DNA from: Fibrobacteria bacterium
GTDB taxonomy: Bacteria; Fibrobacterota; Chitinivibrionia; Chitinivibrionales; FEN-1185
Assembly: GCA_037447435.1 (NCBI GenBank)
Contig: JBBIGR010000024.1
Coordinates: 1-64,000 of the forward strand
Direction of reading: 5' to 3'
Length of the DNA: 64,000 nt
In this document: piece by piece, positions 63,001-64,000 of the stretch
Position numbering within the stretch: the stretch's first letter is position 1
How the letters are laid out: the number at the start of each line of letters is the position of its first letter
Position numbers: made by a program

Positions 63001-64000
63001 TCTTTTTTTTTTAGAACATTGCAATCTGCTCGATGAGCTTAAATTTATTAAAATTCCCGCATTGGTAGTGCACGGCAAAGACGATGCTATTATTCCTCTA
63101 GCGGCTGGTAAATCGGTTGCTGATTTGATTAATGGGAGATTTTCTAGTTTTTCCGGGGGGCATGCCTTTTTTCTTCATCAGCAAACGGGATTTTTGTCTG
63201 AAATATCCTCATTTTAATGCAGTAGCAATACTGGTTTATTATATATTCTTTCTCCTATGGAAAAACCGACTTCTCCAATCCGTTTAAGCGTTGCCTATTC
63301 TTTTGAGCCAGGTCTCATTGAGCAGCTTTCAAATATTCCTGCTGTGAAAGAGGTTTATGGAAAATTACCTAATGATAGAATCGGCGGCGGCAGATCGTCA
63401 TATAGCATGCGGCCGTTACTGCCGGGGGCGTTAAAAAAGGCGGTTAAGCTTTCGCATGATCGTGGAATCGAATTTAATTATTTGTTAAACGCTGCTGCGC
63501 TATATGGCCTTGAGCAAACCAAATCCGGGCAGAAGATATTAAGAAAAGCCATTGATGCGGTTGTTGAATGCGGAGTGGACGCGGTTACAGTTTCATTGCC
63601 GTTGCTATTGAAAATTGTTAAGAAACAATATCCTAAACTCAGGGTTAGGGTTGGTGTTTTCGCGCAGGTGGATACAGCAGAAAAAGCTAAGCAATGGGAA
63701 AACCTTGGTGCCGACACTATTTGCTTGAGTGCGATTGCTTGTAATCGCGATTTTGACCGGTTATCTATGATTCGCAACTCAGTCAAATGCGGTCTTCAAT
63801 TAATTGTCAATGCTTCTTGCACGCCGCAATGCGCGTGGGAAAACACCCATATGCATTTATTAACTCAAAGTTCCGCTAAGGGTACTAAAAATGGAAGGTT
63901 TTTGATTGACTATTGTTTCGTTGCATGTTCATTAAGAAAATTAACTGAACCCGCAGCTTATATAAAGTCGATTTGGATACGACCGGAAGATTTGTCCTTA

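What a model noticed while it worked through the whole genome (the two positions that open the first line are those of the whole stretch)
63257..64000. U32 Fe-S hydroxylase clade tied to type III polyketide synthases: O2-independent tailoring of alkylresorcinol/quinone li [...]
A distinct U32-family protein sits with a type III PKS and methyltransferases twice in this genome (C24 here; C13:43623-49271 with KAS II, ACP and a UbiE-like methylase). Since known U32 proteins are prephenate-dependent, oxygen-free hydroxylases, the cluster looks like the anaerobic counterpart of PKS III + methyltransferase + flavin monooxygenase clusters that make alkylquinones.
Evidence so far: Orthologs in 36 of 121 phylum genomes, all but one in this order. 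Of 18 close-ortholog loci fetched, 17 hold a type III PKS, 15 a KAS II, 10 a UbiE-like and 9 a second methyltransferase. Eight Cys invariant in 21 of 21 aligned members (188, 192, 220, 224, 365, 370, 373, 376) and the PKS Cys-His-Asn motifs present. No flavin monooxygenase hit in the close loci; a more distant U32 clade lies beside a GGR-like flavoprotein. U32 chemistry and 'most of twelve subfamilies uncharacterised': PMC10990095, passages read. The finding spans contig positions 63257 to 66387; this window holds only 63257 to 64000 of it.
(Added by a program. Inside this text positions count along the whole contig: contig position 1 is position 1 of the stretch shown here. "Call 12" and the like, gene names such as g00115 and contig names such as C1 are that model's own, and its searches are not shown. 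The text may have been shortened before it was handed on; [...] marks where a part breaks off. The agent that wrote the report below was given it as the finding of a first reader that could run no searches.)

Follow-up and report, generated by a model that had tools for sequence, protein, structure and literature searches.

The report
Oxygen-free hydroxylase candidate in polyketide cluster
A conserved bacterial gene cluster for phenolic lipids carries an iron-sulfur 'U32' protein where closely related clusters carry an oxygen-using flavin hydroxylase, so it probably adds an oxygen atom to the lipid without needing O2; this is inferred from genomes, not yet shown in the lab.

Summary
An intact 414-aa, 8-Cys U32 gene (contig 63257-64501) precedes a type III PKS and a PRK06202-type methyltransferase. 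A 47%-identical paralogue on C13 sits with KAS II, ACP, PKS and two methyltransferases. 43 of 44 phylum genomes with a close U32 hold the PKS.

The swap was tested from the PKS side. Of 80 loci fetched by PKS, 30 hold U32, 10 a flavoprotein, none both and 40 neither; the two partners interleave on the PKS tree. A sister U32 clade lies beside chorismate mutase (44/80) and oxidosqualene-type cyclase (52/80), which supports prephenate-fed oxygen transfer in this subfamily.

Against: the canonical CX6CX15CX3C spacing and the essential Glu of TrhP/RlhA are not met; no U32 hydroxylation had been shown in vitro in the papers read; product unknown. This genome has menaquinone genes and terminal oxidases, so neither a quinone-substitute role nor strict anaerobiosis is supported. 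The biotin adjacency is incidental, and C24 is not a relic.

Best reading (0.6): an O2-independent ring hydroxylase making methylated alkylhydroquinone/quinone lipids. Not found in ten literature searches; earlier scan notes report the same pairing elsewhere.

The parts
63257..64000 (+). 5' 248 codons of the 8-Cys U32-family Fe-S protein (whole gene: contig C24 63257-64501, 414 aa; CX3C-X27-CX3C at 188/192/220/224 and CX4CX2CX2C at 365/370/373/376). The rest of the cluster lies beyond the window on the same strand: type III PKS at contig 64419-65600 (likely start GTG 64512; Cys180/His309/Asn342 in the 393-aa ORF) and a PRK06202-like SAM methyltransferase at contig 65608-66387
58592..63217 (+). 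bioC-bioD-bioA-bioF-bioH-like genes; adjacent (39 bp to the U32 ATG) but not part of the system
   Evidence: bio genes beside U32 in only 1 of 128 loci; bioB lies on C66

Best explanation
The cluster makes a methylated, ring-hydroxylated alkylresorcinol (alkylhydroquinone/alkylquinone-type) lipid without O2. Steps, all inferred: (1) the dedicated KAS II and ACP (C13 copy) supply a long acyl-ACP starter; (2) the type III PKS adds three malonyl units and closes an alkylresorcinol ring; (3) the UbiE-like and PRK06202-like methyltransferases methylate ring carbon and/or phenolic oxygen; (4) the U32 protein oxidises the ring through an Fe-S centre on C188/192/220/224, with C365/370/373/376 as a second metal or relay site, and takes the new oxygen from prephenate, doing the job of HidB/SrsC-type flavoproteins. 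C24 is an old three-gene version that would draw starter from C13 or general fatty-acid synthesis. Shown here: genes, motifs, fold, co-occurrence, exclusion with flavoproteins. Not shown: Fe-S binding, substrate, product, oxygen donor.
For: Gene linkage: 34 of 44 close loci and 43 of 44 genomes have the PKS. Three separately supported U32 clades are PKS-linked; other phyla carry a compact U32-MT-PKS unit (MT 21, PKS 16 of 26 loci), the same three functions as hidABC (MT, FAD oxidoreductase, PKS; PMC10896814; PMC6836626). Exchange with flavoproteins: in 80 loci fetched with a PKS alignment, U32 only 30, flavoprotein only 10, both 0, neither 40; among the 41 with the MT, 28/9/0/4. Seven of the flavin loci hold PKS, FAD_binding_3, UbiE and MT (three flavoproteins checked in Pfam, E<=1.3e-54), the C13 gene set with flavin in place of U32, and flavin-linked PKSs interleave with U32-linked ones at three places on the tree. 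Same order: G147 has MT-PKS-UbiE-flavin monooxygenase and no match to this U32 (69% complete). Prephenate link: the sister clade (36% identity, support 1.0) has DAHP synthase/chorismate mutase in 44 of 80 loci and shikimate genes in 7, and shares N185, C188, C192, H198, D218, C224, K258, E261, R262 with this protein. This genome has a chorismate mutase (TIGR01802 over cut-off). Two genomes that lack U32 beside PKS-ACP-KAS also lack the methyltransferases there (G111, G141).
Against: The canonical CX6CX15CX3C motif (PMC11574389; PMC6747719) is replaced by CX3CX27CX3C. The Glu essential in TrhP (E162) and nearly so in RlhA (E161) is Gln in 94 of 119 and Glu in 20. Direct hydroxylase activity had not been shown for any U32 in the papers read. 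Half of the PKS loci (40 of 80) have neither partner within 5 kb, mostly B12 radical-SAM + PKS, so hydroxylation is not obligatory for this PKS clade. The PKS query was built from U32-linked PKSs and many loci are kin, so the 0-overlap figure (naive p 0.006) overstates. One locus (L134) has both U32 and a FAD_binding_3 protein with a PKS. No chorismate mutase lies in any of the 44 close PKS loci. G003 (98% complete) has PKS-UbiE-MT with neither partner found. The PKS product type is unknown: best NCBIfam hit DpgA far below cut-off, best PDB hit Pks18, an alkylpyrone synthase by recall.
Confidence: 0.6

Rival explanations
1. U32 does transfer oxygen, but to the acyl chain (on ACP or on the finished lipid), not to the ring.
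For: U32 directly abuts KAS II or ACP in 30 of 34 PKS-bearing close loci. The sister clade beside oxidosqualene cyclases would act on an alkene, not an aromatic ring.
Against: KAS/ACP are absent from C24 and not evident in the U32-MT-PKS units of other phyla, while MT and PKS stay. The gene it excludes is an aromatic-hydroxylase-type flavoprotein.
Confidence: 0.12
2. U32 is an Fe-S redox enzyme of the pathway but not an oxygen-transferase (e.g. oxidative decarboxylation, dehydrogenation, coupling or electron supply).
For: Canonical Cys spacing and Glu not met; extra four-Cys motif; related U32s sit in B12 radical-SAM clusters (L078, L079, L086); PepU32#6, the group of the nearest solved structure's organism, was set apart as lacking the conserved motif.
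Against: Exclusion with flavin monooxygenases and clustering of the sister clade with prephenate synthesis are hard to explain without oxygen transfer.
Confidence: 0.17
3. Role-level rival: the product is a membrane electron carrier replacing isoprenoid quinones, as recalled for mycobacterial polyketide quinones.
For: Known menaquinone routes are rare in the order: menB over cut-off in 2 of 81, futalosine family in 1 of 81. A UbiE-like methylase, and in some loci YceI and MMPL, are present.
Against: This genome is one of the two with menB and has two clusters anyway. Oxidases do not track the cluster: cytochrome bd in 12 of 81 and COX1 in 16 of 81, including G039, G087 and G163, which have no match to U32 or PKS. 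The cluster is broken or lost in several genomes (G027, G095, G135, G111, G141).
Confidence: 0.2
4. The C24 copy is a decaying relic, or belongs to biotin synthesis.
For: It lacks KAS II, ACP and UbiE and lies 39 bp behind bioH on the same strand.
Against: All three ORFs are open with catalytic residues intact. Synonymous sites are saturated (pS 0.75-0.84) while pN is 0.32-0.49 against the nearest relatives held. Six database proteins are 62-70% identical with both Cys motifs. bio genes flank U32 in 1 of 128 loci and bioB is present elsewhere.
Confidence: 0.06
5. It is an RNA hydroxylase or a collagenase-like protease, as databases label it.
For: Source names read 'collagenase-like PrtC family protease'; TrhP is the best E. 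coli match.
Against: The genome has two other, much stronger Pfam U32 matches (E~1e-73). TrhP and UbiU NCBIfam scores are about 25 and 20 bits against cut-offs of 534 and 440. Tight linkage to lipid genes.
Confidence: 0.03

Closest known systems
hidABC (picocyanobacteria, hierridins) and the planctomycete MT-oxidoreductase-PKS operon (PMC10896814: passages and Discussion read; PMC6836626: passages)
   Same: Type III PKS + SAM methyltransferase + a gene expected to hydroxylate the resorcinol ring; short cluster, likely alkylresorcinol core.
   Different: Fe-S U32 protein instead of the FAD oxidoreductase; often a dedicated KAS II/ACP and a UbiE-like second methylase; mixed gene orientation. Sequence orthology to HidA/HidC was not tested.
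srsABC of Streptomyces griseus (one passage in PMC8086630) and mycobacterial polyketide-quinone clusters (recalled; also named in earlier scan notes)
   Same: PKS III + methyltransferase + hydroxylase giving alkyl(hydro)quinones.
   Different: Their hydroxylase is an O2-dependent flavoprotein (recalled); their methyltransferase is of another family (ICMT-like, recalled).
UbiU/UbiV, TrhP, RlhA of E. coli (PMC10990095: abstract, introduction, Discussion; PMC5727448, PMC6599085, PMC6747719, PMC11574389: passages)
   Same: U32 TIM-barrel family; first Cys, the CX3C pair and the Lys..Arg motif align; proposed aromatic C-H hydroxylation with prephenate as O donor.
   Different: CX3CX27CX3C plus a second CX4CX2CX2C motif; Gln for the essential Glu in most members; single-gene; polyketide rather than isoprenoid-quinone or RNA substrate.
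Mk0906 (PDB 5D88); all three M. kandleri U32s are listed as PepU32#6 in Kimura et al. Table S2
   Same: Only sequence hit in PDB at E<0.1 and best fold hit.
   Different: 22% identity, 254 aa, uncharacterised; lacks the C-terminal ~150 residues by length.

Membership tests
U32 (PF01136) fold family | Pfam U32 score over gathering cut-off and U32 TIM-barrel fold | tested here: met
   33.6 bits vs 22.4; Foldseek best hit 5D88, E 1.1e-10
Characterised U32 hydroxylases (UbiU/TrhP/RlhA) | Four Cys in CX6CX15CX3/4C spacing | tested here: not met
   Four invariant Cys present but as CX3CX27CX3C; C188 aligns with TrhP C170 (motif)
Characterised U32 hydroxylases (UbiU/TrhP/RlhA) | Glu before the first Cys (TrhP E162, RlhA E161) | tested here: not met
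   Position 181: Gln 94, Glu 20 of 119; Gln in both copies here
Characterised U32 hydroxylases (UbiU/TrhP/RlhA) | Equivalog HMM cut-offs for TrhP or UbiU | tested here: not met
   24.9 vs 534 and 20.4 vs 440 bits
Characterised U32 hydroxylases (UbiU/TrhP/RlhA) | Bound [4Fe-4S] cluster | not testable with these tools
   Inferred from Cys conservation only; model coordinates were not inspected
Characterised U32 hydroxylases (UbiU/TrhP/RlhA) | Dependence on prephenate | tested here: inconclusive
   Host has chorismate mutase; sister clade clusters with it in 44 of 80 loci; the PKS-linked clade does not (0 of 44)
PepU32#6 of Kimura et al. | Placement in their tree of 3521 motifs | not tested
   Only nearest-structure inference; their sequences were not aligned
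Type III PKS | Cys-His-Asn triad and CHS domains | tested here: met
   (47 of 47 in the phylum set)
Alkylresorcinol synthase (HidC/ArsB type) | Aldol cyclisation of a long-acyl tetraketide | tested here: inconclusive
   Phe/Tyr at position 262 (47 of 47) and Asn at 271; that an aromatic residue there favours resorcinols is recalled, and two papers searched for it gave no passage
hidABC/srsABC-type cluster | PKS III plus SAM methyltransferase in one cluster | tested here: met
hidABC/srsABC-type cluster | FAD-dependent hydroxylase in the cluster | tested here: not met
   0 of 44 close loci; the G147 flavoprotein has relatives in 2 of 81 order genomes, not in this one

The most novel reading that the evidence does not exclude
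This 8-Cys U32 subfamily is a general prephenate-fed, O2-independent oxygenase module for lipid biosynthesis that replaces flavin monooxygenases in more than one pathway: ring hydroxylation of type III polyketides in the clade found here, and squalene epoxidation for oxidosqualene-type cyclases in the sister clade (L184: aroE/aroK, aroD, hpnE, hpnD, hpnC, FPP synthase, DAHP synthase/chorismate mutase, U32, DCTAE cyclase; no squalene epoxidase family match in that genome). That would mean alkylquinone-type lipids and sterol-type rings can be made without O2.
Probability: 0.4. Interest if true: 0.92.

Novelty: new variant of a known kind. Interest (0 to 1): 0.72.

Why it matters
U32 enzymes are known to act only in ubiquinone and RNA hydroxylation, and no direct activity had been shown in the papers read. 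A single-gene U32 with a soluble, purchasable candidate substrate (5-pentadecylresorcinol and its methylated forms) would make the prephenate mechanism testable in vitro and extend it to secondary metabolism. It would also reveal a lipid class in low-oxygen bacteria of many phyla, including cultured Geomonas and Citrifermentans. If the sister clade epoxidises squalene, the rule that sterol rings need O2 would have an exception, which bears on steroid biomarkers.

Tried and rejected
Single-protein scan of genome contigs found nothing; the alignment scan worked. A scan with the methyltransferase alignment could not run for lack of conserved stretches; the PKS alignment was used instead. Apparent U32-UbiE fusions in L136/L137 were long off-frame ORFs in GC-rich DNA (frame check by coordinates) and are rejected; the UbiE-MT fusion in L033 and L105 is real. 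Absence of chorismate mutase (PF01817 and PF07736 negative, own HMM negative) was a false alarm: a yeast/plant-type enzyme lies before tyrA; how widely that type occurs in the order was not searched. UbiA was uninformative (81 of 81). Promoter and terminator scans at C24 were at chance level. No RNA holder listed. Contigs of run X1, which may be the source of this DNA, also break at the C13 gap, so the PKS frame there is undecided. No complex prediction and no representative-library search were run. U32 as a stand-in for BioB was rejected. Literature searches gave no paper linking U32 to type III PKS or to oxidosqualene cyclase (judged from listings; 30 of 40 hits shown, 30 of 110). The library lacks most subscription papers and bioRxiv supplements are closed.

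Full report
1. What is there. The window ends inside a gene starting at 63257. In the laid genome it is a 414-aa ORF (contig C24 63257-64501), followed on the same strand by a type III PKS and a methyltransferase. Pfam calls them U32 (weak, 64 residues), chalcone-synthase-like and Methyltransf_25; NCBIfam gives PRK06202 as the nearest methyltransferase family. The AlphaFold model from a 119-sequence alignment is confident (pLDDT 92.4), and its best structural match is the U32 protein Mk0906. C13 holds a 47%-identical paralogue with KAS II, ACP, a PKS split by a 10-N gap, a UbiE-like and a PRK06202-like methyltransferase. Close relatives are named Chitinivibrionales, Chitinispirillaceae or Fibrobacterota, so the host is inferred to belong there.

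2. Conservation. 53 of 201 phylum genomes match the U32; 44 have a close full-length copy. 53 of 201 match the PKS; 43 of the 44 have both. I fetched regions of up to 20 kb around most of the matches and mapped them. Among 44 full-length loci of the clade (partial or frameshifted copies such as L060, L077 and L082 left out), PKS is present in 34, KAS II 30, MT 27, UbiE 21, flavin monooxygenase 0; among the 31 loci of 10 kb or more, 28, 23, 24, 19 and 0. In G006, G012, G023 and G073 the U32 is unlinked, and the rest of the cluster lies elsewhere in the genome. The commonest layout alternates strands, U32> KAS< ACP< PKS> UbiE< MT> (11 of 34). The cluster is dispensable: it is broken or reduced in G027, G095, G135, G111 and G141.

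3. The C24 copy. On both the U32 and PKS trees it groups with the full cluster of the same-genus G117/G121, while the C13 U32 groups weakly with others: an old paralogue reduced to three genes. Synonymous sites are saturated and replacement sites are not, and 62-70%-identical proteins exist in other samples. The biotin genes are a chance neighbour (1 of 128 loci; bioB on C66).

4. Beyond the phylum. On the U32 tree (121 sequences plus three E. coli outgroups, FastTree), two further clades with support 1.0 are PKS-linked. One is U32-MT-PKS in Planctomycetota, Lentisphaeria, Desulfobacterota, Acidobacteriota and others (26 loci: MT 21, PKS 16). The other is U32-UbiE-YceI-(MMPL)-PKS (11 loci: UbiE 9, YceI 9, PKS 8). 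The root is not resolved, so I do not claim an order of events.

5. The swap, tested from the PKS side. An alignment of 12 U32-linked PKSs fetched the best 80 of 598 related stretches, with 5 kb flanks. U32 only: 30; flavoprotein only: 10; both: 0; neither: 40. With the MT present (41 loci): 28, 9, 0, 4. Eight flavin loci carry a relative of the L097 monooxygenase; three were confirmed as full-length FAD_binding_3. Seven hold PKS, flavin, UbiE and MT. Two more (L313, L327) are weaker GGR-like matches. Flavin-linked and U32-linked PKSs interleave at three places on the PKS tree, including L097 from this order beside the U32-linked L144 (support 0.987). Caveats: the query favours U32 loci, some loci repeat earlier ones, kin are not independent, a partner may lie beyond 5 kb, and L134 holds both. 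Most 'neither' loci pair the PKS with a B12 radical-SAM gene (anammox bacteria, Nitrospirota), so 'simple swap' describes the methyltransferase-bearing clusters only.

6. Does this subfamily use prephenate? Against: the Cys spacing is CX3CX27CX3C, not CX6CX15CX3C, and the position of TrhP E162 is mostly Gln (for the known residues). For: a sister clade (36% identity; support 1.0) lies beside a DAHP synthase/chorismate mutase fusion and an oxidosqualene-type cyclase. In the best 80 of 126 stretches of that clade: cyclase 52 (motif DCTAE, DCTSE, DCTGE or DTTAE where readable, never DxDD), chorismate mutase 44, FPP synthase 27, squalene synthase family 23, GGR-like flavoprotein 16, shikimate genes 7. 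L184, on a single 5.2-Mb chromosome record, has the whole series from aroE to the cyclase. That genome has no squalene epoxidase (PF08491), no FA_hydroxylase match and no full-length FAD_binding_3 match; 1 of the 5 genomes checked did have PF08491. Three same-genus genomes have U32-GGR-cyclase but no squalene synthase family match, which is unexplained. Active-site candidates N185, H198, D218, K258, E261 and R262 are shared across the PKS- and cyclase-linked clades, while positions 195 and 199 differ by clade (E/M here, A/A with the cyclase, Q/Q and S/M in the other PKS clades), as expected of one chemistry on different substrates. This genome can make prephenate.

7. Role of the product. Menaquinone genes are rare in the order, which would suit a substitute carrier. 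But this genome has menB, cytochrome bd and a heme-copper oxidase, and oxidases occur in genomes without the cluster. A protective or structural envelope lipid made under low oxygen fits at least as well; MMPL and YceI genes in some loci point to export. This is inference.

8. Literature. Ten searches showed no paper joining U32 to type III PKS or to oxidosqualene cyclase. Read: PMC10990095 (abstract, introduction, Discussion), PMC10896814 (passages, Discussion), and passages of PMC5727448 (plus one part of Table S2), PMC6599085, PMC6747719, PMC11574389, PMC6836626, PMC8086630 and PMC13730376. Details of srsABC, polyketide quinones, Pks18 and active-site rules for resorcinol synthases are recalled. 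Earlier scan notes report both pairings in other genomes; they are leads, not support, and I had reached both from my own calls before seeing them.

9. Verdict. Real, conserved and unreported in what I could search. It works like the flavin hydroxylase of hidABC/srsABC clusters and is a U32 by fold, but is not a member of any characterised U32 group. Probability that it is an O2-independent, prephenate-using ring hydroxylase of a type III polyketide: about 0.6. New variant of a known kind; interest 0.72.

Noticed in passing
L184 (G202) 413-11320; also L188, L196-L275, and L073-L075 in the same genus as the window: Sister U32 clade clustered with oxidosqualene-type cyclase (52 of 80 loci), DAHP synthase/chorismate mutase (44), squalene synthesis (23) and shikimate genes (7); no squalene epoxidase family match in 4 of 5 genomes checked. 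Candidate O2-independent squalene epoxidase.
   Followed up: partly
G002, G018, G117 (L073-L075): U32 + GGR-like flavoprotein + cyclase with DTTAE motif, yet no PF00494 squalene synthase or PF08491 match in these 94-98% complete genomes; substrate unexplained.
   Followed up: partly
L307-L353 (anammox bacteria, Nitrospirota): The same PKS clade pairs with a B12-binding radical-SAM gene in 32 of 80 loci, including Ca. Scalindua, Brocadia and Jettenia; product unknown.
   Followed up: no
L194:2010-2819 (contig C36): Yeast/plant-type chorismate mutase (TIGR01802 over cut-off) directly before tyrA, in a genome with no AroQ or AroH Pfam match.
   Followed up: partly
contig C13 about 46527-46593 (L002:10528-10594): A dispersed intergenic repeat of about 70 bp with an internal hairpin lies between the divergent ACP and PKS genes and recurs at about 20 other places in the genome; MITE/REP-like.
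   Followed up: partly
C13 cluster and L033-L071: The cluster genes usually alternate strand (U32> KAS< ACP< PKS> UbiE< MT>) yet stay together; convergent ends overlap or nearly touch.
   Followed up: no
L033:4077-5579, L105:1511-3037: UbiE-like and PRK06202-like methyltransferases fused in one ORF.
   Followed up: yes
L078, L079, L086: More distant U32s (32-34%) inside clusters of B12 radical-SAM genes, two of them with a sulfotransferase and a GH3 ligase; C220 is replaced by Tyr/Phe in that clade.
   Followed up: no
L052, L062: U32 lies next to a C30-carotenoid-like cluster (CrtI-like desaturases, aldehyde dehydrogenase, GT2, CrtO).
   Followed up: no
window 48353-57225: A 1025-aa protein with Fn3-associated repeats, PKD and FGE-sulfatase domains followed by a 1935-aa TPR protein; not related to the finding.
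   Followed up: no
genus of the window: All six genomes of the genus hold a heme-copper oxidase subunit I, but only this one has menB over cut-off; the quinone of the others is unknown.
   Followed up: no
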